Shown here in pieces: positions 17,640 to 62,735 of a stretch of DNA of 64,000 bases. This DNA comes from Eledone cirrhosa (lineage: Eukaryota). Below the pieces are notes generated by a model, which searched no databases, had not been told where the DNA came from, and saw only the letters and a program-made list of their open reading frames with translations. Position numbers and translations under genes: made by a program. Each line of letters opens with the position of its first letter. Position 1 is the first letter of the stretch. Location: contig OZ024740.1 in NCBI GenBank assembly GCA_964016885.1, forward strand, positions 213,342,001 through 213,406,000, read 5' to 3'.

Positions 17640-17701
<62 letters not shown>

Positions 17702-18567: not shown

Positions 18568-18633
<66 letters not shown>

Positions 18634-33471: not shown

Positions 33472-33508
<37 letters not shown>

Positions 33509-41399: not shown

Positions 41400-41440
<41 letters not shown>

Positions 41441-44400
41441 AAATGAGAGTAAGGGATACTCTCGGGTCCCAAATAATAGGGTGTGTGTGGAATAAGCAGG
41501 GGTGGGGGTGGAAGATCGGTAATTTTTCTAGGTTGTCACTGTTGATTTTTTAAAAACCAGAGTTAGTTGTTTAGTTTACATATTGAGACCATTATTCTAG
41601 GGTAGAATGTATAATTTATATACTATTGCGAGGAATTCTATGCAGTAGTTTATTTTATTTCTATTAAAGAAATTATCTAAAAAATTTGTAGTAATTTATT
41701 TTGTTTCTGTTAACAGAGAAATTATTTTGAAAATCTTTTCCAATATTTCCATATGTTAAGCAGGTATCCGTGGTTTTGGTGTTCTCAATAGGGATCAATA
41801 TGAAGTCAATCCAGAAGATATTACTGTGACATTCGATGATGTCAAAGGTGTAAGTATATTCCTAAACTGGTTTCAGCCAGTAGGCTGCAACACTACTCTG
41901 ATAATTCAAATTATTCTAAAGGTAGATCATCTAATAATTAAAAAATATATATAAACTATTTGTTTTCTTTCATTAGAATTTAATTTTTAAAAACTCAGAA
42001 TAATACTAACGATGATGAAAGTATTAAATAAAAAAGTCAGTTTAATATTTTCTTCAGTCATGTCAAAGACATAAGGACTTTCCTGATGTTGGTGATCTAC
42101 ATGATAAACACATCCAGTACACACTATAAAGTGGTTGGTGATAGGAGGGTATCCAGATATCAAAAGGTTGGGAGGATTCTCGGTTGTGTCAAAGACATGA
42201 CAACCTCTTCTGTGCACTTAGTAGAATGTGAAACCGTACTTAAATGAGATGCCGATCCCTGGCCCGTCAGGAAGTTCAGTAGCCCCGCTTTAGTGCTGAC
42301 TTGGTCTATGTAGACCTGTCCAACTCTTGCCAGCAGGGAATGATGATGATAATCAGTGAACACTGTTTATCTGTTATTTTTTGTCAATATTAACCCTGTC
42401 ATTGCCATATTTCTAATGAAGATCTGTTGAATTTTTTAATTCATTTTGAAAATAATCAAGAATTTGGAGGGATTTAGTTATGTAATTAAACCTCTCATTA
42501 TTAAGTTGGTGTTTGGAACATAACAAATGATTTTGCATATAATTATGATGGGAGGTTTTTAGATAAATATGATATGGCATGGAAATGTAACTCCTGATGG
42601 AGTTGTAGGGGTGTCATATTGACATGGCATTTCGAGAGCATTTTTAAACCTGGCAGAGTTCTTCTCTCCAGGTCTGAATACAGTAGATTTCTTCCAGAGA
42701 AGGATAGAGAGAATGAGAACGAGATATAGAGGAAGAATCAACCCCAATACTAGACTGGTACTTTTAGATAAATATAAACACTTTAAAATAAATAGTTTAG
42801 CGTTATAGAACTAGGAGCAGTTTTGAATCAGTTTGATATGAAAAGAGTTAGAAGTAGAGACAAAAGCTGTAGTGAACATTGGATGAAATGTTTTGTTGTA
42901 CTTATATCCTTATTTCAAGTCCTACCAGGGTTGGTAAAATTAAGCAATCATCAATGTACTCTTTGGTAGCTGTCAGCTAATATTTTTTTTTAAATTAAAA
43001 ATCACCAAATCTGCTTTGCTAATTATCTCTATTATAATAATATTATATTATCTCTATTAATTTGTATTATAATGATGTCGTTATATTTTAGGTTGATGAA
43101 GCTAAACAAGAGCTGAAAGATATTGTTGAGTATTTAAAAAATCCAGAAAAGTTTACGGCTCTTGGAGCTAAGCTACCTAAAGGTAAATTATTTAAATAGT
43201 ATAATTGTTTTAATAAGAAAACATTTATTTTCTAATCTGGTCTAGATACAAGGGTTGACTGTAAAGTTCATAGGCTGACCAAGATATTCTCATGGAATGA
43301 CCAAATGAGCTTTATTTTTCAAAATAGTCCTTGGAAAGAAACAATGCAGTTATTAATAAGAAGAGTTGAAATTAATACATGCAAGATTTCACTGCTCTAG
43401 CATCATTCCTTCATAGTCAGTCTAGGAACTCTTCAGCCGACTCTTGTACATTGTCTATAATTTATAACCAATATGCTAAATCTAGAGTTAGTCCTCAGAT
43501 GAATAAAATATCTGTTTAATTGTAGGAGTTTTACTTGTTGGACCTCCTGGTATTGGAAAAACTCTATTGGCTCGTGCTGTTGCTGGTAAGTTATGAAAAA
43601 GTATTTATCAAATTATTATATTATTTAACATTTAAATCAGCTGTATCCAGCCAGAATTCTTTCCCTTTTTTGAAATCGGTCATAACCAACAGCTCACACT
43701 GACGTTAAGATATAGTTCTTAAAATAAACAATAACATCATCAAAATCTTGTAGACTCGAGATTATGTGAGATAAAGCTTTTACTGTGAAAATACAATAGT
43801 AAATATAGAGTAATATAAATGCTAAAGGGTTAAACTGTTATGAGTTTCTAAATTGCCCTCTGTCTCCGAGTTCATCTCGCCGTAACTATAAATTCGCTAA
43901 CTACTAGGTTATGTTGAGAGATTCATTCCTCACCAGGGACGGACTTTGTGTTTAGAACCATCACTCTATCTTGTCTACTGGTGGGGATAAAATCTATTTG
44001 GCTAGCATGTTCACCTGTAGATGAAGTGGTTGTCTGGTTTTTGTTATAAACATAAATATGATTGCATTGCCTAGATAGTTTCAATTTGTTTTGTTACTAA
44101 TTAAGCTTACTTCATTAAAAACAGTTATTAACTGTTACTGTTTTAGTCCCTGTTATATATTGGAACACTACCTTTAAGTGTTTTAGTAGATGTTTTTGCC
44201 TAGTACTTATTTTATTAATCTCATAAACGCTGATGATCGCTGGGTGAAGAAGTGTCAGGAAATCCCAGTGGTAGGAAGCTGCAGTAGAGTTAGAGCAAGG
44301 AAGACCTGGACAGATCAGGTGGTGAGAACCGATCTCAAATTGCTAAAACTCACAGAGGAGCTGACAGGAATACAGCTAGTAGAGAGGCGCTGTGCTGAAA

Positions 44401-47400
44401 GGGACCTGTCCAATCCGTGCAAATGTGAAAGAACGGACGTAAAAACGATGATGATAGATGTAAAAGGCAATTCAACATTGTCATATTTATAATATATCCC
44501 GACGTACCTCCTCCACCGCAGCCTCCGTTCCATACTGTAAAGTGGTAATGTAGGAGTCACGATAAAAAGCACCCAGCCCACACTAATTGTGGTCATGTAG
44601 GTGTCCCGATAAAAAACACCCAGTACACACTGTAAAGTGGTCATGTAGGTGACACGACAAAAAGCACCCAGTACACTGTAAAGTGGTCATGTAGGTGACA
44701 TGGCAAAAAGCACCCAGTACACACTGTAAAGTGGTCATGTGGGTGACATAGCAAAATGCACCTGGTATACACTGTAAAGTGGTCGTGTGGGTGACACGAC
44801 AAAAAGCACCCAGTACACACTGTAAAGTGGTCGTGTGGGTGACACGACAAAAAGCACCCAATACACACTGTAAAGTGGTTGTGTGGGTGACATGGCAAAA
44901 TGCACCCGTATACACTATAAAGTGGTCGTGTGGGTGACATGACGAAAAGCACCTGGTACACACAGTAAATGTGGTTTGCGTTAGGAAGGGCATCCACCTG
45001 AAACCAAACCAGAAACAGTTCTGTATTAGCAAAAAAGTCATTTGACCTGGCTTGTCTCACAATGAGGTAACTCATCTAACTCATGCTAGCATGGAATAGT
45101 GGATGTTAAACGGTGATGATGATGTTTATTTTTCAATCCAAAATTGCAAATTGTAATTATTTCATGTCTAAATATTCAGCTTTGATTGTTGGGCGTTTTA
45201 GACATTTTTTTTAGTTCATTTTAAAGATATTTATTTTACATTTCTGATTTAGTCTACAGTATATTTCCATTATTCTCAACAATATATTCTTACTGTTTTA
45301 ATTACTTTCAATTATATTTTTAGGAGAAGCTGGTGTCCCTTTTTTCCATGCATCTGGATCAGAGTTTGATGAAATCTTTGTTGGAACTGGTGCCAAGAGA
45401 GTTCGGCAATTATTTTGTATGTTATTTTGTTATTTTCTGTTCTTTGTTTGATATAACAATATTCTTTAAACTTACATAATTTTATTGAGGAATGTAATAT
45501 CACTGTCAATTCCTTTTTTTTGCTCAAACTACTTGTCAACTTGGCTCTATACATGATGATGTCTCTGGGATCACTGACCTAGGCTGACTCTAATCTCTGG
45601 GATCACTGACTTAGGATGACTCTAGTCTCTGGGATCACTGACTTAGGATGACTCTAGTCTCTGGGATCACTGACTTAGGATGACTCTAGTCTCTGGGATC
45701 ACTGACTTAGGATGACTCTAGTCTCTGGGATCACTGACCTAGGATGACTCTAGTCTCTGGGATCACTGACCTAGGATGATTCCAGCCTCTGGGATCACTG
45801 ACCTAAGATGACTCCAGTTTCATCAAGCAAGCACAAGACGGACACTTATCAACTACTGCTTCTGCTTATTTTACACAGTTGAATAATCCATTTGAAAAAA
45901 TAATTACTCTAGGAAATACACTGTCTCAGCCATATTTTGTATGGTCCTGTAATTCCCGATGGAGTCATAGGGGAGCCGTAGTGGCATACAGCGTTTCTAG
46001 GGCATTTTAAAGCTTGGTGAAGCCCATTGCTCTCCAGCTCTGAACACAGCAGATTTCTTCCAGAGAAGGATAGAGGAAGAATTAACCCCAGTATTAGACT
46101 GGTACTTTTTTTATCAACTTCAAAAGGATGAAAGGCAAAGTTGACCTCAACAGGATTTGAACTCAGAGAACGAATTCTGCAAAGCATTTTATCTGATGTT
46201 CTAACAACTCTACCAATTCGTTGCCATATCTCACTCATGTAGAATAATCTTTAAAAAGTTAATATGCTCTCAGTTTACATATACAAACTGGTTGTACTTC
46301 ATCTACGTACAGTTTCACTTATATTTGCACCGTTTTGTATATGATTTGTTTATGTATTGGTACTTAATGTGGAATTATTTAACATATACTCTGTGACAGA
46401 TTTGTGACATACATTTCAGTCTAAATAATTTTTTATATTAATATTCATGATAATCATATCACCTATAATATTGATCAATCAAATATATACTTATCATTCT
46501 ATTTAAGTTCTTTATTTATCACAGGCAGTTGTTATTGATATATCAATATAATTTATATGAAGTATTGTGAGGAATGTAATTAGGGTTGTTTTGGAAAAAC
46601 CAGTACAGTACAAATTAGAAGACTAGAGTTGAGTAAAGTGAGAAAAGCAAAACAAAACAACAGTTTACACTTAAATATTTCAAGGTTAGGACCCCTTTTT
46701 TCAAAAGAAAGAAATGAAGTGTGGTGTATTTCTAATTTGTATTGGACGGGCTTTTCAGAAACAATCAAAACTGACATACTGTCATTTTGGTTTGACCTCA
46801 CCATTTACAGTTGTGAGAAATGATATCAGCTATAAATTGTGAGCAGTCAACAAATGAAAATCACATACATTGCTTCAGGTACTGGCTGATTCAAAAATGG
46901 TATTAACCCTTTAGCATTTATCCAGCCAGAATTCTCTCATCTCTTTCTGTTCAAACCAGTCGTAACTGGCTGCTCATACTGATATTAACATATTCTCAAA
47001 ATAAATATCAAAATCTCGTAGATTCAATATTATGTGAGATAAAGCCTTTTCTATGAAAATACAATAGTAAATATAGAGTAATGTTAATGCTAAGGAGTTA
47101 AATGGTAAAAAGCTACTGAGTTAACTAGCTAATATAACTATACTTCATCAAAATAATCATTCTTTTGTATTTTCAAATAACTAAATTACCTTTATGAAAG
47201 TGGTTAATGATAGGAAGGGTGTCCAGCCATAAAAATCTTACCAAACAAAAAGTTGGGAGGACCCTCAGTTGTGTCAAAGACATGACAATTTCTGTGTAAA
47301 AATGATAATAAAACCTAGTTAAATGTAAACTGTTTTTTCTTTCTTTCTTTTAGCTGCTGGTAAAGTGCGGGCTCCTTGTGTTATATTTATTGATGAAATT

Positions 47401-50400
47401 GATACAGTTGGGGCCAAACGAACAAGTTCTCAAATCCATCCTTATGCTAACCAAACAATAAATCAACTTCTTTCTGAAATGGATGGGTGAGTATAATGTG
47501 TTAGTTACGTGGCCTATTGGTTAACTGTTTAACTTATGATTATAAAGTTGTCGGTTCGATTCCTGGACAATGTGGTGAGTTATTTTTAAGTGAGACAATT
47601 CATTTCATATTGCTTTTCATGAAAGGTATGGGGCTCTTCTTTTAAAACCCTCAAGAAACATCCTTTGAGATGAAACCTCGAGGAGGTCACCTCAACTTGA
47701 ATAGGTGTCAGTGGTAAATTTTATTTTATTTTTTTCAAAATGAATGCCAAGTAAATTATTTTGGGGTTTTACTCTCTTGAAGACTGTGTATTGGAACTAA
47801 AACAGTTATATCTTGGCAGCATCCTGTGAAATTAGCTGGCAAGTGGCTGAGCATTCCATGCACATATGTACCCTTAACACAATATTCAGGGTAATAAAAC
47901 ATGACATAGTTTGTGACAAGGCTGAATTTTTAAATTATTGAATTACAGGTACAACTCATTTTCACCAGCAACATGAAATAAAGTGTCTTGCTCAAGGATA
48001 CTATGCACTACTGGGAATCAAACTCACAACCTGGTAATCATGAGCTAAATACATTTACCACTAATCCATACAAGTTCACCGTTCAGTAACTAAACAAGAA
48101 CACTTCCAACTATTTCAATTGATTAAAATCTGCAGATGAAACACTAAAATAGGATTTGACACAATTTTAATTATTTTTCTGAAATCTTTAGTTATACTTT
48201 AATGGTTTCCCTTCACATCACTTACTTTTATATTTAGATGTAATATAATACTTTATAGTGTTTTATCAAAAGGCTACCAGAAGGCAAATGGGATATTAAT
48301 GGTTAAAAATGTAATAATAACAAAGATGTTAGGATGTTACCATAGTGTTGTTTAATGGTCCTTACATGTTTCAGGATATAATTCCCTCATCAAAAGAATA
48401 ATTGAGTAAACTACTTTGGCGTAGGATATAGTCACTCATAAGTTAGGCTCTGAAATAGTTTACTACATTATTCTTTTGATAAAGGGATTTTATCCTGAAA
48501 TACATAAGGACCGTTAAACAACTTCAATATTTTTGTTATCATCATATTTTTAACAATTAATGCCCCATTTACTTTGTGATAGAATTTTGATAAAACACTA
48601 TTTTCTACACTTTATACAATAAATACTTCAAGCAAACAACATCACCACTCTTAATTTATTACATATTTTCCAAAATCAAAACCACTTATTATGGCTGCTC
48701 TGAGTCAGACAACCATGCTACACACCTGTGTTCTACGAAAATATTGCTGTAAAACTTTCAATTTTTAAGAGTCTCTCATAGTTATTTGCTTATACTTTTA
48801 CAGGTTTCACCAAAATGAAGGTGTCATTGTTCTTGGTGCCACCAACAGAAGAGATAATCTAGACAAGTGAGTATTGAAACATTGCCCACCTCCACTTTTT
48901 ATTTTCAATATTTAAAAAATATTAACTCTTTTGACACCAAAATCCTCAGAAACTGCCCTCGATTCTACAATACAAAACTGTTTGTTTTAAAGTGTTTATC
49001 TAGAAACCTTCGATCATAATTGTATGCACTCAGTACACTCTGTAAAGTAGCTATCATTGGGAAGAGCTTCTAGCGATAGATGCCATAATTGGCTTATAAC
49101 TCATGCTAACGTAGAAAATGGACGTTAAACAATGATGATGATGATGATGACACAGTCATGTATCTTGCCTTGGCTAGAACTGACTCGGATCATACCAACC
49201 TATCCAACCCATAACATCATGGAAAGCAGGTGTAAAATGATGGTAACAATGGTCCCGTAACTCCCAGGGGAGTTGTAGGGGTGCGGTATTGATATACGGC
49301 ATTTCTTGGGAATTTTAAAACCTGGCAGAGCCTATCTCCTCTCCAGGTCTGAATACAGCAGATTTCTTCCAGAGAAGGATAGAAAGAATGAGAGAATTGA
49401 AGTGTGAAAGAAATATAGAAGAAGAATCAACCCTAGTACTAGACTGGTACTTATTTTATCAACCTTGAAACGGTGAAAGGCAAAGTTGACCGTGGCAGGA
49501 TTTGAACGCAGAGAGCAGAGAGACAGGATGAAAACCACAAATCATTATATCTGATGATCTAACGACTCTGCCAATTCGCCACCTTCATTAGTTGATAAAA
49601 TCAGACATTAGAAATTATTGTTAATTGCTTAACCCGTTACCATATTTCTGATAAAATTCACTGTATTTGAATTAATCAATGACAAATTTGGAGGGATTTA
49701 CTAAAATTAATTCAAGTTTTATTTTTAATTTAGGCACAAGGAAATTTATAGGAGGGGGAAAGTTGATTATATCAACCCTAGTACTTGACTGGTATTTTAT
49801 TTTATTGACCCTGTAAAGATGAAAGGCACAGTTGGCCTCGGCATTATTTGAACTTAGAATGTAGAAAGTCATAATTAGATACTGCAAAGTGTTTTATCTG
49901 ATTCTCTAATGACTCTGCCAATCTGCCATCAATTATTTCAATTATTAAGATGCTATTTGTAACATAAAAGGTTTTTATATAAAATTATGTTGTAAGACTT
50001 CAATATAAACAGGAACCTTCTAAATAGGATGGTTTTATTCCATAGAACCAGTGGTTGTGTATCTTATGTATTTGACATAATCGGGAGATCCCTTCAGTTG
50101 TGTGAAGGACATGACAGCCTCCCTAGTGTTTGGTGATTTACACATGACATAATCGAGAGATCCCTTCAGTTGTATCAAGGACATGACAGCCTCCCTAGTG
50201 TTAGGTGGCTTACATGATAAACACATCCAGTACACACTGTAAAGTGTTGGTGATTGGAAGGGCATCCAGCCATAGAAAACTTGCAAAACAGTTGTGTCAA
50301 AGACATGACAACCTATCCAGTGCTGGAGCCACAATAAAATGCACTTAGAGTATGGAAGTAAAATACGAACCCCTGCCCTGTCTGGGAGGTTAGTAGCCCC

Positions 50401-53400
50401 GCTTCAGTACTGACTTGGGCTTGCTAGCAGAGAAAGCGGACGTTAATCCTTTAGCATTTAAACCAGCCATATCCGGCTAGAATTTCTCACCTCTTTCTGT
50501 TCAACCTGGTTGTAATCGGCCACTCATACTGATGTTAAGGTATTGTTCTCAAAATAAATAATATCATCAAAACCTCTTAGATTCAATGTTATGTAAGATA
50601 AAGCCTTTACTGTGAAAATACAATAGTATATATAGAGAAATGTAAATGCTATGTGATATATGTGAGATAAAGTCTTTACCATGAAAAAACAATAGTATAT
50701 ATGGAGGAATGTAAATGCTATGTGATATATGTGAAATAAAGTCTTTACCATGAAAATACAATAGTTATATAGAGGAATGTAAATGCTAAAGGGTTAAAAC
50801 AATGATGATGATTATGATGATCCATTCTTATGTTTGTGAGATTCAGAATAAATTGAAAAGTAAGAACTTGAAGAACTTCTATTCCAGCTGTAAACAGTAG
50901 AAAATGTATTTTATTGTTTTATTTCAGAGCTTTATTACGTCCTGGAAGGTTTGATGTTGAAGTAAGAGTATTTCCACCAGACTTAAAAGGACGGAAAGAT
51001 ATCTTGAGATACTACATGTGCAAAATTAAAATGGAAAATGGTAAATATGATATATATATATATATTTATTTGTGTATGCGTGTGGTGAATATGTTATTGT
51101 AGGCCCCCTTAGGTCACTAATGACCATGGTTTTGTACCTAGGAAGTTCCCCTCCAAGGCATGGTGTGTTTTTGGAAGATCAGCAGTCACTCATGCATACC
51201 AGTCTCACTCTCCATGTCACTGATGTCCAAGGGAAAGCAATGGCTGATACAGCTTGGCACCAGTGATGCTGCAATTCATTTTTACAGCTGAGTTAACTGG
51301 AGCAATGTGAAATAAAGTGTCTTGCTCAAGAGACAACACACTGCCTAGTCCAGGATTCGAATTCACAAACTTATGCCTTCTCAATATGTTTTATATATAT
51401 AGGAGAAAGTAGTTTGCTTGAAGCATTGTGTATGGTATAGAAAAATGTGAAGTTTGAAGGCCACAGCAATGTGAAATGAACAAACAAGAAATAAAAAAAT
51501 ATTATTCCCCCTTCCCCCTCTCCTATGTCTATCACTTCCAGCAGCATCTCTTAACACATTTACCGATTCATGACCTGTCACTTGTTATATTTCTCCGAAG
51601 AAGAGATTTTATCTCGAAATATCAGGAGAGATAAATTAATAAGGTAACACATAACATCTTATTTTATCTTTTTTTCTTGTTCGTCCATTTCACATTGTCA
51701 TGGCCTTCAAACTTCACATTTAGTTGTGTGTATGTCTTTATTGAATGAATGTATACTGAGTTTATATATATTTATGCCAACAATTGTTTGCCATTAGCTA
51801 TAAAAATAATTTGAACAACTATTATATAAGTCTTTATAGGAGACACTTAAATCTCTTTACAAACTCAATCATTGTCTTCAACTACTGTATATACTTGAAT
51901 ATAAGCTGAGGAATATGTGGCCAAAAATCAATAGTAAAATTGGGGTTGGCTTATACTCTATGTACTATTGTTCAATATTGAAATAGCAAAGTGATATTAA
52001 TACAATCTTTACAATATCAAATAATTATATAAGGTTTGCTAGCTTGGTATCAATCAGTTTTTTTTTACTAATGTGATTTCTTGTCTCCATTAAATAAATA
52101 ATAACCAATACTTTTTATTTATGATTTAGATCTTGATGTTGATCTTCTGGCTAAAGGAACCACAGGTTTTACTGGTAAGTAAATCAATATAGAACTGAAA
52201 GATTTTGTTGCTTTTACAGTATTCATAAAAGGTTGAGAGTCTGTGGAGTTTTGTGTAATTCTCAGTAACCATTTCTCTTGCTTGAAGAACTTGCTTAACC
52301 CTTTAGCATTTAAACTGGCTGTATCCAGCCAGAATTCTCTCACCTCTTTCTGTTCAAACTGGCTGTAACTGGCCACTCATACGATGTTAAGGTATTGTTC
52401 TCAAAATAAATAACGTCAAAATCTCATAGATTTGATATTATGTGAGATAAAGCCTTTACCATGAAAATGCAATAGTAGATATAGAATAATGTAAATGCTG
52501 AAGGGTTAAAGACTGTAGTTCTTACAAAGAGGTGTGACGACGCGGCTTGTTTGGCTAAATATTGACATTTGTCTGGTTGGACACTATTGATTATCTCTGT
52601 AATTTTCGACCTCTTTTTCATCTATGACAAACCTTTTTAGAAGTTTTATCATATAAAAAAAACCTGTATTAAAATTATGTTGAAACCAGAATGGGCACAT
52701 GCATTGTGCTTTGTTACAAAGAACTACATATCCAATAATGTGGTGCATTTAAATCAATCTCAAGTTTTCTAAATATTTTTACATTTTCCAACTCGCCTCA
52801 AAAAATTGTGGCACCTTCGTGAACTATATGGCACAGTGCTTGCAAACAACTGGATTAATAGAATAAAACTGGGGGAAATGAGATCTTTTCTTGTTAAAAT
52901 TACTGTTACTTCTAGGTTTAAACTACTACTTTACTGCATGTACTAGGTGCATTTTTGTGTAAATGTTCTTGACACAACTGAAGGGTCCCCCAACCCTTTC
53001 ATTATCATCATCATCATCACTGTTTGACGTCCATTTTTCCACACTAGCATGGATTAGACGAGTTCTGTTGTGAGACAAGCCAGACCAGATGACCATGTCT
53101 TGTTCATACAGATCTGTCTCTGGCTTGGTTTCTACCGCCGGATGCCCTTCCTAGCGCCAACCACATTTACAGTGTGGACTGGATGCTTTTTATCGTAGTA
53201 CCAAAATGACCACTTTACAGTGTGTGCTGGATGCTTTTTGTCATGGCACCAAAACAACCACTTTTTGTACTATATATTATGGAACACTACCTGATTGTAG
53301 TTGAACTTTTGTCATATATTTTGTTTTCAACAATCTATTTAGTGTTATTGGTCAAATTGGAGTTTATAATTTTAGCAGGGATTTATATCTGATTTATTTT

Positions 53401-56400
53401 GGGTTATCTAGTTTCAAGCAGGTTTCCACCAAAATACTGGTTTCAGCTGTGATAAAGGACCCTAAAGCTTCAGCTGTGTTAATTTCATAATAGAACCACC
53501 ACTGCTAATATGACTTATAAAGTTAAACATTTATTCTCAATAAATATCTCTATATTGCTATCATAAGTTACTGTTATATATTCATAGGTGCTGATTTAGA
53601 AAATCTAGTTAACCAAGCTGCATTGAAAGCTGCTATGGATGGAGCACCAACTGTCAGTATGGAACATATGGAATATGCACGTGACAAAGTACTCATGGGT
53701 AAGCATCTATTTACATGATAGTGTGTGTGTGATTGTTTGGCAATGACCTGTAATGGTGACACCTCTGAAAACTGCAAAAGATGGAAACATAAATAGACCT
53801 GTTATTTTTCTCTAAAAAATGTTTTTCTGTTTCCACCACTACCCATCTCCTCAATCTTTCTATTTCTTCTTTAATTTCTCATTCTATCTTCTGCTGAAAG
53901 ACTAGCGTCCGAAACGTTAAGACTCTTCTACTATATCAAGCGTAAAACTAATAATATATTTCTTCATTGTACTGTGATGTTTGCTTTGTTATTTCTGTTT
54001 GCCTTTTACATATATATATATATATATGTATGTGTGTACACATATATATCATCATTATCATCACAACAAATTTCTTCTATTTTAAGGTCCAGCTAAGAAG
54101 ACTCGTATCTCAGATGAAGACGTAAACTGGTTAACAGCTTACCATGAAGCTGGTCATACAATTGTTGCATATTTCACTTCAGACGCTACACCATTGCACA
54201 AAGTCACTATAATTCCTCGCGGTATGTCTTTGGGACATGTAAGTGATTTCTTTCTTTTCTTTTCCTACCCAAAATCTTTTAAAACATTTCATTATAGCTG
54301 TTATCTTTCTGTTGTTTAGTCACGTGACCACCCATCTTTTTTTTATAGGTATAGTATAACTAGGAGCAGCTCACTGAAAACATGCCTATAAAAATAGTCT
54401 TCTTCTTGCTCAATGAGACTGGGGGGGATCATCCTAGGTCAGTGATCCCAGAGGCATCATCTTGTTTGATGAGACTGAGGTTATCTTAGGTCAGTGACCC
54501 CAGAGGCATCATCATGCCTTAATTTGTGACTTAATTTGCAAGGATGAAATGTAAAGTTCACATATCACCACAGTGAACTTTGCTTTTTATCACTTCCAGG
54601 GTTGATAAAATAAACACCAATCCAGTACTTGGGGTTGCTATAATCCTTGCTTGCTCACTCTAGGTCGATGAGACTGGGGTCATCCTAGGTCTGTGATCTC
54701 AGAAGCATCATCATGCATAGAGCCTCTCTGCTTCCTCCAAGGTAATGTCAAGTCTTTGGAGATATTTCTTGATGATATCCAGCCATCTCGTGCGGGGCCT
54801 GCCACAGAAGCACTTTCAGCCTCTAGCTGCTGCGTCAAAAGAGAGAAAGGCCCTGGTAGGATGATCTGGTGGTAGGCGGAAGACATGTCCGTACCAGCAC
54901 ATGCGGTGGATGGCCATACGTGGGCGGCTGCGGGCAGATGTGTGCACACATGCAGCTCTTTGTTACAAAAAGGGTGGTGAGATTTATTCAGTTGACATGT
55001 GCAAGAAAGGTGTTAAAGATATTCTTTCAATCCTTGTTGGGGTGAAGGATTGGATGAAGTGTTTAGCCTGGGACCTAGAAGGTCAAGTAACTGTAATGAG
55101 ACATATATCAGGTGAACCTGGTTGGAGGAATTATGTGATTACCAAGTTCAGAGGAGCAGATATTGATGTAATAAAGGTACAAGAACTCATATCATATTTC
55201 ACTCAACTCATTTTTCTCTTAGGTCCATAAAATAAAGCACCAGTAATGCATTGGGGTTGATTTAATTGACTTTCCTCTCCCACAAAATGATTGGCCATGT
55301 ACCTAAATCAGAAACTACCACACTTTTAACGTTAGTACTGTATAATCAGTGTTTTTTTGTAGAGTGAACCTGAAGTTGTTTTAGACATTAAATCTGAGAT
55401 ATAAACGTAGAAGTAATAAATAATTTCCATTTTTATCTTCATTTACAGACATCATATATTGCTGAGAAAGAAATCTTTAATAAAACAAAAGCTCAGTTAT
55501 TAGCGGAAATTGATGTTTGTATGGGTGGTCGTGTTGCTGAAGAAGTTATCTATGGTGGTGAGAAAGTTACAACAGGTAAATACTGCACTGGCATCATTTT
55601 GGCTTCAAAGTTCTATATTTTCCATATCTACTTTATTTGTCCATTAGTATATGAAGTGGTGAAGAGTACAAAACATTAGTATATGAAGTGGTGAAGAGTA
55701 CAAAACATTAGTATATGAAGTGGTGAAGAGTACAAAACATTAGTATATGAAGTGGTGAAGAGTACAAAACATTGGTACATGAAGTGGTGAAGGGTACAAA
55801 ACATTGGTACATGAAGTGGTGAAGGGTACAAAACATTAGTATATGAAGTGGTGAAGAGTACAAAACATTAGTATATGAAGTGGTGAAGAGTACAAAACAT
55901 CGATACATGAAGTGGTGAAGAGTACAAAACATTGGTACATTTATAATTTTTGGCAAGGTTATTTTTTTTGCCCTTCCTATCACCAACCACTTTACTGTGT
56001 GGATTGGGTGTATTTTATCATGTCACCTACACTAGAGAGGTTTTCTAACAAGTCTTACTATATATAAGCTATGAAATATGGTAAAATGGGGGGAGGGGGC
56101 TACTGCTTATATTTGAGGTCAATATTTTGCTGATTTTCATCAACTTCAAAATTCTATGTAAATGATGTTCTAAAATATTTTCACTTTGGAGGTGAATATT
56201 ACATCTGTTTCACCTTTGGAGGTGAATATTACATCTGTTTCACCTTTGGAGGTAAACATTACATCTGTTTCACTTTGGAGGTGAATATTACATCTGTTTC
56301 ACCTTTGGAGGTGAATATTACATCTGTTTCACCTTTGGAGGTAAACATTACATCTGTTTCACTTTGAAGGTGAATATTACATCTGTTTCACCTTTGGAGG

Positions 56401-59400
56401 TGAATATTACATCTGTTTCACCTTTGGAGGTGAATATTACATCTGTTTCACCTTTGGAGGTGAATATTACATCTGTTTCACCTTTGGAGGTGAATATTAC
56501 ACCTGTTTCACTTTGGAGGTGAATATTACACCTGTTTCACTTTGGAAGTGAATATTATACCTGTTTCACTTTGGAGGTAAACATTACACCTGTTTCACTT
56601 TGGAAGTGAATATTACACCAGTTTCACTTTGGAGGTGAATATTATACCTGTTTTACTTTCAAGGTGAATATTACACCAGTTTCACTTTGGAGGTGAATAT
56701 TACACCAGTTTTACTTTCGATATGACATTCATACTTCCGATTGCTTTTGGTATATATATTTTGAATGAATATGGTCGGAAATTGGTAAAAAACTCATTAC
56801 ATATAATTGTGTTGTGAAACACTTAAAGCATTTTAAATATCAAAATATTAAAACTTCATTAATATATTCTCCACTCAAGATAATTTTAAAACTGTGTATC
56901 AGCAAAACATGGTCATCTGACCTGGCATTGCTTACAACAGGACAACTCATCTAACCCATGTTAACATGGAAAAATGGACGTTAAACGGTGATGATGATCT
57001 AAACATTTTGATTATCTACCTCAGTTTATAAATGGGGTTTGGATTTTTACATATTTCTCAGCCATAAAATAGGAGGTCAGCTTATATTTGAGTATATATA
57101 GTATGTGTCCTCTCTACCTGCCTTATGTCAGTTTTTATTCAGAGTAACTGCTTTCTTAGATGGGTTGCCATTGATGACTTACGGAGCCCACATCTACCCT
57201 GTGAAGTCTTATTTATTGAGAGTGACGTTTCTCTGAGACAGGTTGCCTTCCCCATGGTTTACAGAACACACATCTTTATTATATTTTTATACTCAATATC
57301 ATCATCATCACCACCATTTAACGTTTATTTTTCCATTCTTGAATGGGTTAGATGGGGTGTCCATGTTATGATACAAGTCTGGCCAGTTGGCCGCGCCATA
57401 CCATGCTCAAACAGAACTGTATTTTGGGAATTGGGTGGTCCTGTTATGAAGGAGATCTGGCCAGTTGGTGCCACTGTACCTTGCATATAGCAGGACTGTG
57501 TTTTGGCTGGAATTTTTACAGTTGCTGGATGCTCTTCTTAACACCATCCACATTTACAGTGTGGGGCTGAGTGGTCCCTCTTTATGAGGCAAGTCTGGCC
57601 AATGGGCCACACTGTACCTTGCTCATGTGGAACCACATTTAGGCTGGGTTTTTCCTAACACCAACCACGTTTACAGTGTGGGGCTAGGTGCCACTGTTAT
57701 GAGACAGGTCTGGCTGTTAAATGTTAATTATATGATGCAATTTAATTAACTGATGTTTCCATCAATTTCAAGGTGCTGGGTCAGATTTTCAACAGGCTAC
57801 AGCTATTGCAGAAGCTATGGTGAAAAAATTTGGAATGTCTGAAAAGGTATAGCTTATTTTTAATTCACATATATATTATTTCATATGCAACTTGCAGTGT
57901 GGATGAAGAGTGTTGGAATGAACTCCAGTAAATATACAATGTGCATTGGGTGGTGGGTATATTGAAAATGTTGTACAAAGGGATTATTAAATAATGTAGT
58001 TATAGTTAAGTGTAATATTATTAAGTAAGATTATTAAATAATGTGGTAGTTATAGTTAAGTGTAAGATGTGTATGGAGGAAGCTACATATGAAAAGGATG
58101 TTGAGAATGGTTTGTAAATGGATGGTGTTATAACACTTTTGTTACCTAGGAGACATATTGAATGGAGAAGGTGGATGAGACTTGATGACAGTAGCTAGAA
58201 TGTGATGTGCATGGAAGAAGTTCTGGAAACTGAGTGTGCTAATGAGAAAGGGAGTGTTGCTGAACCTGAAGGGGAAGATGTATGCCGTATGTGTGAGAAA
58301 TGCTTTGATTTATGAGATTGAGGCCTGAATGATGAATGGAGAGCAGCAGAGAATGATCCAGTTGATGTGTAGAGTATCACAGAGAGAAGACAATGAATTG
58401 CAGATGATGGAAATATAGAGTGCATAGCTCGGAGATCAGAGAGTCACTTCAGGTTGAGTTGTTACTTCTCCTGAAGGGCTTTTGGTGTAATGTTACTTGA
58501 TAAAGTATGTAGCTCAGAGATCAGAGAGTCGCTTCAGGTAGAGCCACTACTTCTTTGAATGAGAGATAACAGCTCTGATACTATGGGCATGTAGTTAGAA
58601 TGTCTCAGGAAAGAATTGCTGGACAGATTTTACATGCAAAACTAACTGGCAGGAGACCCAGGGGTAGACTCTGAGCAAGATGGTTGGATAACATCCATGA
58701 GTTTGGCTGGTCTCACTTGGGTATCCAGCTGGATTAGTTGGTGATGTTGCTTCTGACAGGACTGGCTAGAAGAAGTGTTTGAGGACTCTGCCCGTTTGAG
58801 GACTCTGCCCGTTTGAGGACTCTGCCCGTTTGAGGACTCTGCCCCCACAACCCTCTCAAGAATATGTGGGCGAAGAAGAAGAAGGGAATATAGCCAATAA
58901 TGAATATTGTGAAGAGAAAGGGAATGAGATGGGTCATGTGTTGAGGAAGGATGAAAGTGACTGGGTGAAATGGAAATTAATGTGAAAGAAAGTAGAGGAA
59001 GAGGTTGGAAGATGCAGATGATAGGTTAAAATTGAGAAACTAGTCATAGTATCCACAAGGCTAACCCCTACTTTGGCAGAGAAAATGGCCTTGAAATATT
59101 GTTAGATTTGGAGAGGGTCATGTTGTCCTAATATTGCCAAAAATAATGAAATACACTCACTGATTGGTTTGGTTTTCGCTTCAGTATATTTTTATATTTC
59201 TATGAATAATTTAGCTGACAATCAATGTTTATCATTGATTGACCAACAGTTAAAAATATAAATATAAATTCTCAATGTTCTTTCATCACACATTTCTGTG
59301 ACATCTTCAGTGATTATTACTGGGGTTTCCTCCCATTGAAACAAGCCTTAAAATATCTGTGTGTCTGTCTCTTCATTTTCTTCCATATTTGATCTCACAA

Positions 59401-62400
59401 ATCCAGGCAATGATATTTGTTTAAATCTTACACCAATAGAAGCTCAACACTTATATGTGTGCAGTTTTATGTCTTACTTTAAAATAAAACGCAAGGGTTC
59501 ACGTCAGAAGAGCTTCAAAACGTCTTGTCCAACCCATGCCAGCATGAAAAAGTGGGCATAGAGCTGATAATGATGATGATGATGATATATGTGTACCCCA
59601 GCATAGCTGCAGTCTGATGATTGAGACCAGTAAAAGACTATCTATAGAGAGAGTGAGGCAGAAATAGATAGATATGTAGATATCTGACAGCTTATACACA
59701 AATTTCATTTAAGTCTGTGATCAACCCAAGGTTACAGGAAAAGGCAGTTGCCTGTGTACCATGTGATGAAATCAAACTTGGAGACACATGATTGCATGGC
59801 AAACTTCTTAACTACACTCATGCCTGTGCCCATATAACTATACAAATGTTTAAAGTACTGTGTTTGCTTTACATATATGTGTATGGAAAATGGACGTTAA
59901 ACAATGATGATGTAGAAGCACTCTGTTTATTATGTAAATCACTCTGGCCACTCTATAGCACATCGAACCTCTTTGAAGTGAGTTGATATTCATTCTTTTC
60001 ATGTTTAACCCTTTAATGTTCAAACCGGCCAGAATTCTCTACCTTTTTCTGTTGAAACTGGCTGTAACTGGTCACTCAAACTGATGTTAAGGTATTGTTC
60101 TCAAAATAAATACTTTCAAAATCTCATAGATTCGATATTATGTGAGGTAAAGCCTTTACCATGAAAATATAATAGTATATATAGAGTAATGTGAATGCTA
60201 AAGGGTTAAAATATATTTGGAATTATGTCTTTAATACTATGTAATTGTACACAATGTAAATGTGGTTGGCATTAGGAAGGGCATCCAGATGTAGAAACCG
60301 AGAAACAGTTCTGTATGGGCAAGACATGGTCACCTGACCTGGCATTGCTCACAAGAGGACAACTTGTCTAACCCATGCTAGCCTGGAAAGGTGGATGTTA
60401 AACAGTGATGATGATGTATATTCTGTTAATTTCAGATTGGTGTTTGTGTTTTTGATGATGATGTATATTCTGTTAATTACAGATTGGTGTTCGTGTTTTT
60501 GATAATAATGATGATGATGTATATTCTGTTAATTACAGATTGGTGTTCGTGTTTTTGATGATAATGATCCCTTTGACAGTGGCCTTTCTATGTTGAAAGT
60601 CAATGAATTAAGTCCTGCTATACAAGAACAGCTTGATACCGAAATTAAACGTATTTTGCAGGTGAGTATGACATAATTCAGCAATTGAACTATGGCACAG
60701 GAATTAACTTTCAGTCTTTGTTTTCTATTTTGTTTGAAACTATTGTTGTGTTCAATAGAACAATACTTTAACTCTTAACATCCTGTAACTTGTCTAACAC
60801 ATGGTGGCATAGAAATTGGACATTAAATAGTGATTATGATGATGGTTCACATAGAAAAGTTAACACACACATATTATATTATATATATATATATATATAT
60901 CATCATTGTTTTACGTCCACTTTTCCAAGATTGCATGGGTTTAACAGATCTTTTCCATGCATCCATCCCTCCGCTCATTGTGGTCCTTCATCATTGCTTC
61001 AGTAATTTGAGATTAGCTCTCATAACCTCTGCTCAGGCCTCTACTGCAGCTGCCTTCCATTGGAATTTCTTGATACTTCTTCACCCCCAAATCATTATCC
61101 ATATGCATTACATGTCCATACCAGCACAGTCTTCTCTCCTGTACACTACATCTGATTCCTCTTATAACCTTTCTTTCACCTCATCCATGCTTCATTAACA
61201 TTGCATATCCATTGCAGTATGCTCACTTCATTTCTCTCCAGCCTTTGCTTCTCCTCTACATTCATTGCCCATGTCTCACTAACATCCATCATCACAAACA
61301 GACATCTTACAGCCAGCCTTTCATTTGTAAAGAGAAACATTTTGTTATCAGCAGAGCTAATAGATCCCTAAACTTCTATCCTCTTCTTATTCTAGCTACT
61401 ATGCTCTCAGAGTAACCTCCTCCACTACTAATTGGATCATTTAGGTAGCAGAGGCTATCAACCACTTCAAAGGAGTCTTCCTATCATTTATTTAAAGTTC
61501 ATTTTCCCTGTTAGCAAGAGTTGGATATATACATCCACAAACATGATTCCCTGATTCCGTCAGGGAAATGGCCATGTTCGATATGCAGAAAAGGAACTGG
61601 CATAAATTCTATAAGATGCACACAATGTAGGTCCTGGGTAGCAGGCAAACTAACAGGTAGGGAGAAATATGTATGCAGTAGATGTACAGGGAAATTAGAC
61701 AGTAGAAGTCGCACTGATAGACACATTTTTCAAATGCGAGAGGGCGCTATAGAAGTGGTGGATAGCTTCCGGTACCTAGGAGATCAGATTAGCATGGGAG
61801 GAGGGTGTTCCGAGGCCATAGTATCTAGAATAAGGACGGGTTGGAAGAAGTTTAGGGAGCTGCTTCCTCTGTTGACGAAGAAGGGTTTCTCCCTGCGTAC
61901 GAAAGGCCGGTTGTATGATGCCTGTGTGAGGAGCGCGATGCTGCATGGTAGTGAGACATGGGCAGCTACCGCAGAAGATATGCGACGGCTGGAGAGAAAT
62001 GAGGCAAGCATGCTCCGTTGGATGTGCAGTGTAAATGTGCGTGAACGACCCAGCATAAATGTGTTGAGAGAGAAACTGTGTCTGAGAGGGATAGAATGTA
62101 GTGTACGGGAGAGGAGACTGAGGTGGTATGGACATGTGATGCGCATGGAGGATGACCGATGGGTGAAGAAGTGCCAGGAAATGCCAGTTGAAGGAAGACG
62201 TGGTAGAGGTAGACCACGAAAAACATGGGCGGAGGTGGTGAGAACAGACCTCAGATCATTGAAGCTCACGGTGGAGATGACGAGGGACCGTGACGAGTGG
62301 AGAGATGCTGTGCTGAATAAGACCCGTCCCACCCTTGCAAGCAGGGAAAAGCGGATGTAAAATGATGATGATGATGATGATGAAACACACACATATACCC

Positions 62401-62735
62401 CCTCCCTCACACCATCCATACACATACACACACTCACATACACACAAGCACACATCCACACAGGCACACATACACACAGGCACACATACACACACTATGT
62501 ATAGAAAGGAATGTGAAAATAATTTTGTATATATATATATTTTTTTTTTAATGTTATTGTGTGATTATATATATTTTGTTGCTAGGAATCTTATGACCGA
62601 GCTCGACATATCATGAAAACTCACAGTACAGAACACAAAGCTATTGCTCAAGCTCTGATGAAGTATGAAACATTAGACTCAGACGATGTCAAAGCAATTG
62701 TTGATGGTAAAGTTCCTCAGAAACTGACTTCTTGA
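15567..62735 (+). CDS. YME1L1: YME1L1, ATP-dependent zinc metalloprotease (mitochondrial i-AAA protease, FtsH family); 20 coding exons, 752 aa
   Basis: Manual splice join 15567-15596, 32577-32741, 33610-33790, 34524-34616, 36571-36677, 38662-38923, 41764-41849, 43092-43182, 43526-43585, 45324-45416, 47354-47486, 48804-48866, 50928-51040, 52130-52174, 53588-53698, 54087-54238, 55449-55575, 57773-57846, 60539-60661, 62586-62735 gives a 2259-nt open frame. Motifs: [20 protein letters not shown], one TM helix, [27 protein letters not shown] pore loop, [35 protein letters not shown]. Confidence 0.96.
17693..18126. mobile_element. Palindrome of two Penelope-like terminal repeats
   Basis: About 215-bp diverged arms; the same sequence forms the end of the GIY-YIG relic at 28250. 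Confidence 0.8.
18571..18628. repeat. (TA)n microsatellite
   Basis: Direct observation. Confidence 0.95.
18957..19420 (+). mobile_element. RTE LINE 3' fragment, diverged
   Basis: Homologous to 24990-25479. Confidence 0.85.
19453..21165 (-). mobile_element. RTE LINE, decayed and internally deleted, antisense
   Basis: Reverse complement matches the endonuclease, RT and 3' end of the 22950-25479 family. Confidence 0.85.
22255..22680 (-). mobile_element. Tc1/mariner transposase remnant
   Basis: Minus strand reads FIQNGASH...[17 protein letters not shown], similar to FQQDGAPxH...WPARSPDLTPLDFFLWG; ends ccaccctg|ta. Confidence 0.7.
22950..25479 (+). mobile_element. RTE-clade LINE, 5'-truncated (C-terminal endonuclease plus RT; stops near 23443 and 25261)
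   Basis: [16 protein letters not shown] (APE), [43 protein letters not shown]; (GAT)n tail. Confidence 0.95.
26228..27080 (-). mobile_element. RTE LINE RT fragment, antisense
   Basis: ORFs 26231-26611 and 26627-26941 with [23 protein letters not shown]. Confidence 0.9.
27412..28243 (+). mobile_element. RTE LINE 3' fragment
   Basis: Homologous to 24640-25479; (GAT)n tail. Confidence 0.9.
28250..29290 (-). mobile_element. Penelope-like retroelement 3' fragment (GIY-YIG endonuclease relic plus terminal repeat)
   Basis: Reverse complement of 28741-28920 reads [51 protein letters not shown]. Confidence 0.88.
29295..29950 (-). mobile_element. RTE LINE internal fragment, antisense
   Basis: ORFs 29349-29597 and 29743-29973 match the translation of 23240-23880. 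Confidence 0.9.
30825..31575 (-). mobile_element. Second RTE-like family, 3' fragment with internal duplications
   Basis: Shared core gagagtcactccaggtagagccgctacttctcc; other copies at 1890-1990(-), 32000-32155(+), 37345-37690(+), 58415-58885(+). Confidence 0.7.
32577..32741 (+). CDS. YME1L1: YME1L1 exon 2 ([11 protein letters not shown]...KAEP)
   Basis: cttcag| acceptor, |gtaaga donor, 165 nt; VTAALSQL resembles human VTVPLSHL. Confidence 0.85.
33115..33374. mobile_element. Foldback MITE (~115-bp inverted arms)
   Basis: CAGTAAAAGCAAGGGGAAGTAATTGA.../...TCAATTACTTCCCCTTGCTTTTACTG. Confidence 0.8.
33610..33790 (+). CDS. YME1L1: YME1L1 exon 3 (EKLSLK...[11 protein letters not shown])
   Basis: ttgcag| and |gtaagt; conserved SAQxFFENK motif. 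Confidence 0.9.
34524..34616 (+). CDS. YME1L1: YME1L1 exon 4 (GFPENQLN...KKELK)
   Basis: ttttag| and |gtttga; 93 nt, symmetric phase 1-1, open; weakly conserved region so less certain. Confidence 0.7.
34706..36443. repeat. About 1.74-kb compound (ACC/ACT/ATC)n minisatellite filling intron 4
   Basis: Direct observation; 18/21-bp higher-order units. Confidence 0.95.
36571..36677 (+). CDS. YME1L1: YME1L1 exon 5 ([11 protein letters not shown]...LRRS)
   Basis: Third of three tandem acceptors; RGFKT motif; |gtaaga donor. Confidence 0.88.
37710..38140 (-). mobile_element. Third RTE-like family, 3' end, antisense
   Basis: [19 protein letters not shown]...RAQFAGHC; tgatgatga tail. Confidence 0.85.
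38662..38923 (+). CDS. YME1L1: YME1L1 exon 6 (includes AFAEGY and the transmembrane helix)
   Basis: ttgcag| and |gttagt; [22 protein letters not shown] hydrophobic segment. Confidence 0.92.
39950..40800 (+). mobile_element. Tx1/L1-clade LINE 3' fragment in an (ATCT)n tract
   Basis: Homologous to 7510-8440 ([32 protein letters not shown]). Confidence 0.85.
41764..41849 (+). CDS. YME1L1: YME1L1 exon 7 (...[15 protein letters not shown])
   Basis: aagcag| (NAGNAG) and |gtaagt; start of the AAA domain. Confidence 0.92.
43092..43182 (+). CDS. YME1L1: YME1L1 exon 8 ([30 protein letters not shown])
   Basis: FtsH-family consensus; GT-AG. Confidence 0.96.
43249..43446. mobile_element. Tc1/mariner-type MITE, TA TSD
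   Basis: TA|CAAGGGTTGACTG...CAGCCGACTCTTG|TA; partial copy at ~9215-9377. Confidence 0.75.
43526..43585 (+). CDS. YME1L1: YME1L1 exon 9, Walker A ([20 protein letters not shown])
   Basis: P-loop; GT-AG. Confidence 0.96.
44535..45123 (+). mobile_element. Non-autonomous retroposon with RTE-type tail and internal ~40-bp tandem array (about 10 units)
   Basis: Unit aaaaagcacccagtacacactgtaaagtggtcatgtaggtgacacgac, then ttaggaagggcatcca core and gttaaacggtgatgat tail; relatives at 8670, 12840, 13800, 21195, 21560, 26045, 30005, 53005, 60255. Confidence 0.8.
45324..45416 (+). CDS. YME1L1: YME1L1 exon 10, pore loop ([31 protein letters not shown])
   Basis: FtsH-family consensus; GT-AG. Confidence 0.96.
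45562..45818. repeat. 32-bp minisatellite, 8 copies
   Basis: Unit tctctgggatcactgacttaggatgactctag at period 32. Confidence 0.95.
47354..47486 (+). CDS. YME1L1: YME1L1 exon 11, Walker B ([17 protein letters not shown]...[11 protein letters not shown])
   Basis: FtsH-family consensus; GT-AG. Confidence 0.96.
48255..48601. mobile_element. Diverged foldback MITE
   Basis: atagtgttttatcaaaa.../...ttttgataaaacactat with ~150-bp imperfect arms. Confidence 0.7.
48804..48866 (+). CDS. YME1L1: YME1L1 exon 12 ([20 protein letters not shown])
   Basis: Sensor-1 ATN motif; GT-AG. Confidence 0.95.
50928..51040 (+). CDS. YME1L1: YME1L1 exon 13, SRH/arginine fingers (ALLRPGRFD...)
   Basis: SRH motif; GT-AG. 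Confidence 0.96.
52130..52174 (+). CDS. YME1L1: YME1L1 exon 14 ([15 protein letters not shown])
   Basis: AAA lid motif; GT-AG. Confidence 0.93.
52299..52505. mobile_element. piggyBac-type MITE (TTAA TSD); also 43625-43829, 46907-47097, 50447-50793, 60009-60205
   Basis: TTAA|CCCTTTAGCATTTA...TAAATGCT(G/A)AAGGG|TTAA. Confidence 0.85.
53588..53698 (+). CDS. YME1L1: YME1L1 exon 15 ([16 protein letters not shown]...DKVLM)
   Basis: AAA lid consensus; GT-AG. Confidence 0.96.
54087..54238 (+). CDS. YME1L1: YME1L1 exon 16, zinc-binding HEAGH
   Basis: TAYHEAGH...[13 protein letters not shown] (peptidase M41); AAG acceptor, gtaagt donor. Confidence 0.96.
55449..55575 (+). CDS. YME1L1: YME1L1 exon 17 (...[12 protein letters not shown]...VTT)
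   Basis: M41 consensus; GT-AG. Confidence 0.96.
55642..55940. repeat. 32-bp minisatellite, about 9 copies
   Basis: Unit cattagtatatgaagtggtgaagagtacaaaa. Confidence 0.95.
56180..56720. repeat. 29/30-bp hairpin-forming minisatellite, about 18 copies
   Basis: Unit gtttcacctttggaggtgaatattacatct. Confidence 0.95.
57773..57846 (+). CDS. YME1L1: YME1L1 exon 18 ([25 protein letters not shown])
   Basis: Third zinc ligand Asp in SDF; FGMS motif; AAG acceptor. Confidence 0.95.
58777..58845. repeat. 17-bp tandem repeat x4 inside an RTE-like fragment
   Basis: Unit gtttgaggactctgccc. Confidence 0.9.
59095..59400 (-). mobile_element. Diverged Penelope-like terminal repeat
   Basis: Similar to 28250-28440; retains CTGAAGA..GAAA on the minus strand. 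Confidence 0.6.
60539..60661 (+). CDS. YME1L1: YME1L1 exon 19 ([10 protein letters not shown]...[18 protein letters not shown])
   Basis: Third of three tandem acceptors gives the only open frame; |gtgagt donor. Confidence 0.9.
60900..61510 (-). mobile_element. Old RTE 3' fragment, antisense
   Basis: Reverse complement similar to 24780-25479. Confidence 0.8.
61549..62383 (+). mobile_element. Young RTE LINE 3' fragment (open frame to the natural stop)
   Basis: ORF 61521-62360 is highly similar to 24630-25479; (GAT)n tail. Confidence 0.95.
62586..62735 (+). CDS. YME1L1: YME1L1 exon 20, terminal ([10 protein letters not shown]...YETLD...KLTS*)
   Basis: gctag| acceptor; SYxRA and YETL motifs; TGA stop. 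Confidence 0.95.
   Translation, partial: ESYDRARHIMKTHSTEHKAIAQALMKYETLDSDDVKAIVDGKVPQKLTS

What the first reader, a model, noticed from the sequence alone, without database searches (positions are those of the whole stretch)
60405..60570. Exon 19 acceptor triplicated via (GAT)n microhomology between a retroposon tail and Asp codons
Seen: gatgatgtatattctgttaatt(t/a)cag|attggtgtt(t/c)gtgtttttgat occurs three times (exon starts 60436, 60483, 60539). The unit is bounded upstream by the (GAT)n tail of a retroposon ending ~60416 and downstream by the exon's GAT-GAT-AAT-GAT codons. Copies differ slightly, arguing against assembly error. Only the third AG is in frame. Acceptor 2 ends ...[21 protein letters not shown] (stop 65 nt before the last junction) and acceptor 1 ends ...[24 protein letters not shown]. 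Both keep all zinc ligands and add a TM-like tail. A weak GT at 60463 could also define an in-frame 27-nt micro-exon plus a 76-nt new intron. Inference: TE-tail-driven splice-site multiplication, possibly exon/intron birth in progress; the second such event in this gene.
Basis: partly seen in the sequence, partly recalled or inferred. Interest (0 to 1): 0.72.

Follow-up and report, generated by a model that had tools for sequence, protein, structure and literature searches.

The report
Triplicated splice acceptor in octopod YME1L
The end of an intron and the start of exon 19 of an octopod mitochondrial protease gene (YME1L) occur three times in a row, likely copied by slippage at a jumping-gene's GAT-repeat tail; the one likely messenger-RNA contig seen uses only the last copy, so this is likely a tolerated repeat of a kind already known from lancelets.

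Summary
Three acceptors (exon starts 60436, 60483, 60539; units of 47 and 56 nt) lie behind the (GAT)3 tail of a high-copy SINE-like repeat in a 20-exon octopod YME1L gene. Only the third is in frame. A DNA contig breaks exactly where copies 2 and 3 diverge, which argues against an assembly error. A 2,453-nt, likely mRNA, contig joins exon 18 to the third acceptor, with no micro-exon. All 11 full-length octopod YME1L models checked have that junction.

GAT/AAT microhomology probably set the breakpoints here, but it is not a genome-wide driver: 0 of 113 other testable tails start a duplication. In 482 sampled exons, duplicated real splice sites (1–2 independent events among 391 acceptors; 4–7 among 399 donors) are no commoner than at intronic pseudo-sites (1.0–1.7%). 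Intron birth and functional new C-termini are unsupported; minor leakage into decay-prone transcripts cannot be excluded.

This is a new instance of the amphioxus "mirage" (PMC3087553). The scan has already noted at least nine such repeats elsewhere in this genome. Low interest.

The parts
60247..60415 (+). 5'-truncated SINE-like retroposon copy; (GAT)3 tail at 60407-60415, ending 20 nt before the first acceptor's exon start
   Evidence: 87-89% identity to four other genomic copies, all ending in (GAT)n
60416..60462 (+). Copy 1 (47 nt): 20-nt intron end, AG at 60434-60435, 18 nt of exon start, GAT run; out of frame; the more diverged copy
60463..60518 (+). Copy 2 (56 nt): intron end, AG at 60481-60482, exon start, GAT/AAT run; out of frame
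60519..60538 (+). Copy 3 intron end; the acceptor used (AG 60537-60538)
   Evidence: X5 record 24 aligns 60537-60662 with no differences
60539..60661 (+). YME1L coding exon 19 (123 nt, phase 0); the GAT-GAT-AAT-GAT codons at 60557-60568 supply the downstream microhomology
57773..57846 (+). YME1L exon 18 and upstream donor; intron 18 is 2,692 nt
   Evidence: X5 depth on it equals that of the exon 19 contig
62586..62735 (+). YME1L last coding exon 20; intron 19 is 1,924 nt
36484..36585 (+). Second array of the same kind: exon 5 acceptor in three copies (exon starts 36491, 36531, 36571), 40-nt unit, no GAT tail; only the last in frame
15567..62735 (+). Host gene: 20-exon YME1L (i-AAA protease), 752 aa, 95-96% identical to Octopus models

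Best explanation
The exon 19 acceptor of YME1L is present in three tandem copies, likely made by two slippage or unequal-exchange events between the SINE's (GAT)n tail and the exon's GAT/AAT codons, and the two upstream copies are likely silent decoys removed with intron 18. Shown: the three copies, their GAT-run junctions in two different registers, and a likely mRNA contig that uses the third acceptor. Inferred: the SINE came first; the third copy wins because, between two long introns, the exon is defined from its own donor and enhancers and the nearest acceptor is taken; any leakage to copies 1 or 2 is frameshifted and would be degraded by NMD. The array is a tolerated by-product of the high rate of short tandem duplication in this genome's introns.
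For: mRNA-like contig X5 record 24 (2,453 nt, depth 52.1) aligns 60537-60662 without differences; the bin depths on exon 18 (19.6, 14.2) and exon 19 (51.6) are what that one contig predicts (19.65, 14.17, 51.64). 11 of 11 full-length octopod models keep the plain junction. Duplicated real sites are no commoner than duplicated pseudo-sites: acceptors 1-2 independent events in 391 called, donors 4-7 in 399, controls 30-37 of 3,000 and 46-50 of 3,000. Both junctions fall in GAT/AAT runs. Lancelet mirages did not disturb splicing in RT-PCR (PMC3087553, passages). Cross-exon proximity is reported for long flanking introns (PMC9225289, abstract and section 9).
Against: Contigs drop rare variants, so minor use of copies 1 or 2 is not excluded; X5 is RNA only by inference (its kind is not on record). 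A residual X5 depth of 14.3 in the bin 60436-60549 is unassigned, probably tail-like repeats, since run X4, which lacks exon 19, has 308 there. Copies 1 and 2 score as well as or better than copy 3 (10.5, 9.4, 9.4). PMC9225289 section 9 finds that the upstream 3' site stays preferred overall and that long introns only reduce the bias. The ancestral intron could not be seen, so the order of events is inferred. A second acceptor event in the same gene has a chance of only 5-17%.
Confidence: 0.78

Rival explanations
1. Leaky or regulated unproductive splicing: copies 1 and 2 take a real share of splicing and feed NMD, lowering or tuning YME1L dose.
For: Copies 2 and 3 are identical over the 20-nt intron end and the first 21 exon bases; copy 2 has a YTRAY motif at -28. 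Extra pseudo-sites are used in human CBS and 6-16, for donors (PMC1557585, passages). Duplicated acceptors tend to be rarer than the control (1-2 seen, about 4 expected), as if mildly harmful.
Against: The X5 contig runs unbroken through the junction. The acceptor deficit is not significant (P 0.10-0.25). No sign of conservation or regulation.
Confidence: 0.1
2. Compensatory repair: the SINE landed 20 nt from the acceptor and displaced its branch point; the duplication built a better 3' site from the exon's T-run plus GAT and was favoured.
For: Copy 1 has no YTRAY at -18 to -40 and an extra AG at -32; copies 2 and 3 have TTGAT at -28 and -37.
Against: Only 40% of 364 called acceptors have YTRAY there, and the enrichment comes from YTAAY (31% vs 13-15%), not YTGAY (11% vs 8-11%). 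Another acceptor with a tail 42 nt upstream (L063) has no duplication.
Confidence: 0.05
3. One reading: a new micro-exon and intron are being born, or membrane-anchored C-termini are made as functional isoforms.
For: The 27-nt micro-exon is in frame. The tails are hydrophobic: 19-residue Kyte-Doolittle maxima 2.59 and 2.45, against 2.29 for the best window of YME1L itself; only 2 of 964 off-frame exon readings (255 long enough to score) reach 2.5.
Against: The donor is weaker than all 19 real donors. The contig lacks the micro-exon. The hydrophobic run is largely the conserved T-rich and GAT codons read off frame. The tails replace the last 90 residues, conserved to E. coli FtsH, and both stops are NMD-type. 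No protein hit for the acceptor-1 peptide (weak).
Confidence: 0.05
4. Assembly artefact.
For: Run X1 may be the individual that was assembled, so it is not independent biologically; no listed contig spans all three copies.
Against: X1 record 7 ends at 60530, exactly where a 31-mer graph must branch if copies 2 and 3 both exist (first difference at 60560). The copies differ at three bases and in unit length.
Confidence: 0.02

Closest known systems
Amphioxus 'mirage' minisatellites (Adh3; globins BflGb6 and BflGb9), PMC3087553, passages read
   Same: Tandem copies spanning an intron-exon boundary; BflGb6 copies the intron 3' end plus the exon start, as here; unit size within the 10-160 bp range; normal splicing of the mRNA; proposed as raw material for intron gain.
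   Different: Octopod, not cephalochordate; three copies of unequal unit length; breakpoints in a retroposon (GAT)n tail and Asp/Asn codons, whereas that paper calls the mechanism unclear; length variation not tested here.
Human splice-junction VNTRs: F7 intron 7, CBS, 6-16, LAMIN B2, PDGF (PMC1557585, abstract and passages)
   Same: Identical pseudo-sites beside the authentic site, mostly silent.
   Different: Those are donors, where the first site wins; here acceptors, where the last site must win against the usual upstream preference.
Intron gain by tandem duplication of an AG|GT proto-splice site (PMC2891723, passages)
   Same: A short tandem duplication inside a gene creates extra splice signals.
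   Different: That model duplicates exonic AG|GY; here an existing acceptor is duplicated, the only candidate new donor is very weak, and no new intron is seen.
[quoted passage not shown]
   Same: Retroposon copies ending in a trinucleotide repeat; an octopus RTE LINE is reported to end in a microsatellite.
   Different: The passages and abstract seen concern insertion and marker families, not duplication of flanking splice sites; the clade of this SINE was not determined.

Membership tests
Mirage minisatellite | Tandem repeat whose unit spans an intron-exon boundary | tested here: met
   20 nt intron + 18 nt exon + GAT run, three copies
Mirage minisatellite | One terminal copy is the authentic boundary; the others lie in the intron and keep splice signals | tested here: met
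   Only 60539 is in frame; all three keep CAG and score 9.4-10.5
Mirage minisatellite | Regular mRNA splicing is not disturbed | tested here: met
   Main form only: one likely mRNA contig uses the third acceptor; minor forms are not measurable from contigs
Mirage minisatellite | Copy-number variation between alleles or cells | not testable with these tools
   RAD-seq run X21 had no depth on exon 19; X1 is one sample
Intron gain by tandem duplication | Duplicated AG|GT proto-splice site giving a usable donor and acceptor | tested here: not met
   The exon begins AG|AT; candidate donor at 60463 scores 2.8, below all 19 real donors
Intron gain by tandem duplication | New intron is excised from transcripts | tested here: not met
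   The contig carries exon 18's AG directly before 60539; a rare form is not excluded
   1 of 114 testable tails, the finding itself; none of the 5 other clear events nor the exon 5 array has such a tail. Upper 95% bound 2.6%, so only a large excess is excluded
RTE-mobilised SINE | 3' end shared with an RTE-clade LINE; target-site duplication | tested here: inconclusive
   3' end resembles by eye that of the LINE fragment at 61515-62383; clade not tested; no clear target-site duplication
YME1L / FtsH i-AAA protease (host gene) | AAA domain plus M41 protease with HEXXH; orthology | tested here: met
   95-96% identity to Octopus YME1L models; homologues carry PF00004 and PF01434; HEAGH at 564

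The most novel reading that the evidence does not exclude
A SINE insertion 20 nt from an essential acceptor crippled its branch point, and the SINE's own (GAT)n tail then primed duplications that rebuilt a working 3' splice site out of exon sequence, leaving upstream copies that bleed transcripts into NMD or into membrane-tailed YME1L forms: a transposon causing and repairing a splicing lesion.
Probability: 0.07. Interest if true: 0.55.

Novelty: new member of a known kind. Interest (0 to 1): 0.17.

Why it matters
On its own it matters little: one more tolerated splice-junction repeat in a genome where a few in a thousand acceptors and about one in a hundred donors have one. Two small uses remain. 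The breakpoints are unusually readable and point to microsatellite microhomology as one way mirages start, a mechanism the lancelet paper left open. And two near-identical acceptors 56 nt apart in an essential gene are a natural competition experiment on how the last of several 3' sites is chosen. Such arrays can also mislead gene predictors.

Tried and rejected
No RNA holder was listed on record; X5 was treated as RNA from its spliced contig. Run X4 (organism B) had zero depth on exon 19 and X21 (RAD-seq) none, so neither an orthologous intron nor population data was obtained; no related genomes are held. The exon 19-20 junction and exon 5 were not covered by the laid stretch, so acceptor use at exon 5 is untested. 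RNA structure masking the decoys: the region folds worse than its shuffles (z +1.35, 185 of 200 as good); rejected. A general tandem finder missed a donor duplication (L086) and was replaced by a site-centred scan. A first in-sample acceptor matrix made exon 19 look the weakest in the gene; the matrix trained on the survey put it mid-range, so that point was dropped. Ten acceptor-side and most donor-side hits of the loose scan, and most, were intronic arrays near but not across the splice site and were rejected by eye. Protein search for the acceptor-1 peptide: no hit. Literature searches: 'mirage' with minisatellite found only PMC3087553; cephalopod plus splice-boundary repeats, VNTR plus acceptor and YME1L plus NMD listed nothing relevant. 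These cover the open-access library only; supplements were not read, and the original Adh3 mirage paper was not seen. The conditional test (tail plus a second GAT run nearby) had only 2 cases, one being this locus, and says nothing.

Full report
Context. The window holds an octopod YME1L gene on the + strand. Exon 19 hits YME1L of Octopus bimaculoides at 95%, tblastn places the exons, and 20 exons from 15567 to 62735 give a 752-aa ORF with canonical splice sites, 95-96% identical to models of O. vulgaris, O. sinensis and O. bimaculoides. The genome is 3.0 Gb.

Observation. A 20-nt intron end plus the first 18 nt of exon 19 occurs three times, with exon starts at 60436, 60483 and 60539. Units are 47 and 56 nt; copy 1 differs at two bases and copy 2 at one. 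Only the third start is in frame. Upstream lies a 5'-truncated high-copy repeat (60247-60415) whose four inspected relatives all end in (GAT)n. Exon 5 has a second triplicated acceptor with a 40-nt unit and no GAT tail. In the gene, 2 of 19 acceptors and 0 of 19 donors are duplicated.

Is it real? A contig of DNA run X1 ends at 60530, with no differences from there to 60861. Copies 2 and 3 first differ at 60560, so a graph of 31-letter words (word length taken from the tool text) must break at 60530 if both copies are in the reads. That supports the duplication independently of the assembly, though X1 may be the same animal. No listed contig spans all three copies.

Which site is used? Run X5 holds a 2,453-nt contig at depth 52.1 that aligns to 60537-60662 only, without differences. 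The two bases before 60539 are the AG that also ends exon 18; a micro-exon would end in AT and could not match there. X5's depths over exon 18 and exon 19 equal what this one contig predicts (19.6, 14.2, 51.6 seen; 19.65, 14.17, 51.64 computed). I infer an mRNA joining exon 18 to the third acceptor. Limits: X5's kind is not on record, contigs drop rare forms, and 14.3 of depth in bin 60436-60549 is unassigned (likely tail-like repeats: X4 has 308 there and nothing on exon 19). All 11 full-length octopod models in the cluster have the plain junction. A search with the acceptor-1 peptide found no protein (weak).

How it arose. Both junctions fall in GAT/AAT runs. The tail and the exon share TGATGAT exactly, and the two junction runs (9 and 18 nt) differ in register. 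This fits two slippage or unequal-exchange events between tail and codons, or one event followed by re-duplication and contraction of the run. This is inference: no orthologous intron was available.

Is it a TE-driven process? In 1.48 Mb (window plus fetched loci) I found 189 tails. 114 were testable; 75 were dropped for low-complexity or short flanks. One begins a tandem duplication, and it is this locus. Random positions lie in a first copy 107 of 6,000 times (1.8%, on the first 611 kb). The upper 95% bound for the other tails is 2.6%, so a large excess is excluded and a small one is not.

How common are duplicated splice sites? Eight Pfam families gave 569 matches in the genome. I entered 497 into scripts, leaving out 72 rows of the last three families (mostly long single-exon or first-exon matches and weaker rows), and 482 had flanks. 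A trained matrix called 391 acceptors and 399 donors; paralogues were not collapsed in these totals. After review by eye: acceptors, one independent event shared by four kinesin paralogues (found by the loose scan, not at the matrix-called site) plus one old doubtful case; donors, four clear events in three genes plus three doubtful. Matched intronic pseudo-sites gave 30-37 of 3,000 (acceptor-like, last copy) and 46-50 of 3,000 (donor-like, first copy). Real sites are thus at or below background; neither the acceptor deficit (P 0.10-0.25) nor the acceptor-donor difference (P 0.18-0.37) is significant. A second duplicated acceptor in this gene has a chance of 5-17%, and any second site about 27%: mildly notable, not compelling. 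None of the five other clear events has a GAT tail, though one uses a GGT microsatellite in the same way.

Why the last copy? The copies score 10.5, 9.4 and 9.4 and no stable structure hides the first two, so local strength does not decide. Both flanking introns are long (2,692 and 1,924 nt). PMC9225289 (abstract, passages and section 9) reports that with long introns the sites closest across the exon are favoured, but for 3' sites it shows only a reduced upstream preference. The choice of copy 3 is therefore plausible but not guaranteed, and some leakage is possible. Both leaked forms would have stops more than 55 nt before the last junction (decay rule recalled) and would lose the last 90 residues, a region conserved to E. 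coli FtsH. The tails are unusually hydrophobic (2.59 and 2.45; 2 of 964 off-frame readings reach 2.5), but this follows largely from reading T-rich and GAT codons off frame. The micro-exon donor scores 2.8, below all 19 real donors. A repair reading is possible, since copy 1 lacks a branch-like motif that copies 2 and 3 gain from the exon, but TTGAT-type motifs are barely enriched before acceptors here.

Comparison. The structure meets the tested features of the amphioxus mirage: tandem copies of an intron-exon boundary, one authentic terminal copy, normal splicing (PMC3087553, passages). Human donor VNTRs behave alike (PMC1557585, abstract and passages). It fails the tests for intron gain by a duplicated proto-splice site (PMC2891723, passages). 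I found no cephalopod description in the open library, but the scan's own unchecked notes list at least nine such arrays in this genome. One of them (e1-9535941) gave me the term 'mirage', which I then checked in the paper.

Verdict. Real, and a new member of a known kind. Silent decoys made by local microhomology slippage: 0.78. Leaky or regulated NMD splicing: 0.10. Compensatory repair: 0.05. Intron birth or functional tails: 0.05. Artefact: 0.02. Interest 0.17.

Noticed in passing
window 32497-32570: A 32-nt T-rich unit is duplicated in the pyrimidine tract just before exon 2 without copying the AG.
   Followed up: partly
window 34704-36443: A 1.7-kb ACC-rich array (period 9/18) fills most of intron 4 and ends about 40 nt before the exon 5 acceptor array.
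   Followed up: no
window 34616-34624: Other octopods have models differing by two residues at the exon 4-5 junction; here the bases 6 nt past the donor are GA, not GT, so that second donor may be lost.
   Followed up: no
L085 and L086 (G000:C21, about 10,901,000 and 10,904,400): Two donors of one MCM-family gene are each duplicated (87 and 80 nt); the 87-nt copy starts in a GGT microsatellite that shares TGGCAG with the exon, a donor-side parallel of this finding.
   Followed up: partly
L121 (G000:C18, about 34,850,500): An aldehyde dehydrogenase exon end and donor repeated at least four more times in an 82-nt unit.
   Followed up: partly
L106, L108, L111, L112: Four near-identical kinesin paralogues share a duplicated candidate acceptor with units of 119-140 nt and differing copy number.
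   Followed up: partly
L397 (G000:C3, about 140,516,500): A diverged copy of a Ras-family acceptor plus about 20 nt of exon start lies 278 nt upstream: an old duplication or an exon remnant.
   Followed up: no
window 61515-62383: A 3' LINE fragment with a 281-codon open frame and a (GAT)7 tail lies in intron 19 on the gene's strand.
   Followed up: no
window 45561-45818, 55642-55937, 56179-56717: Minisatellites of 29-32 nt; the first two begin within about 150 nt downstream of exons 10 and 17.
   Followed up: no
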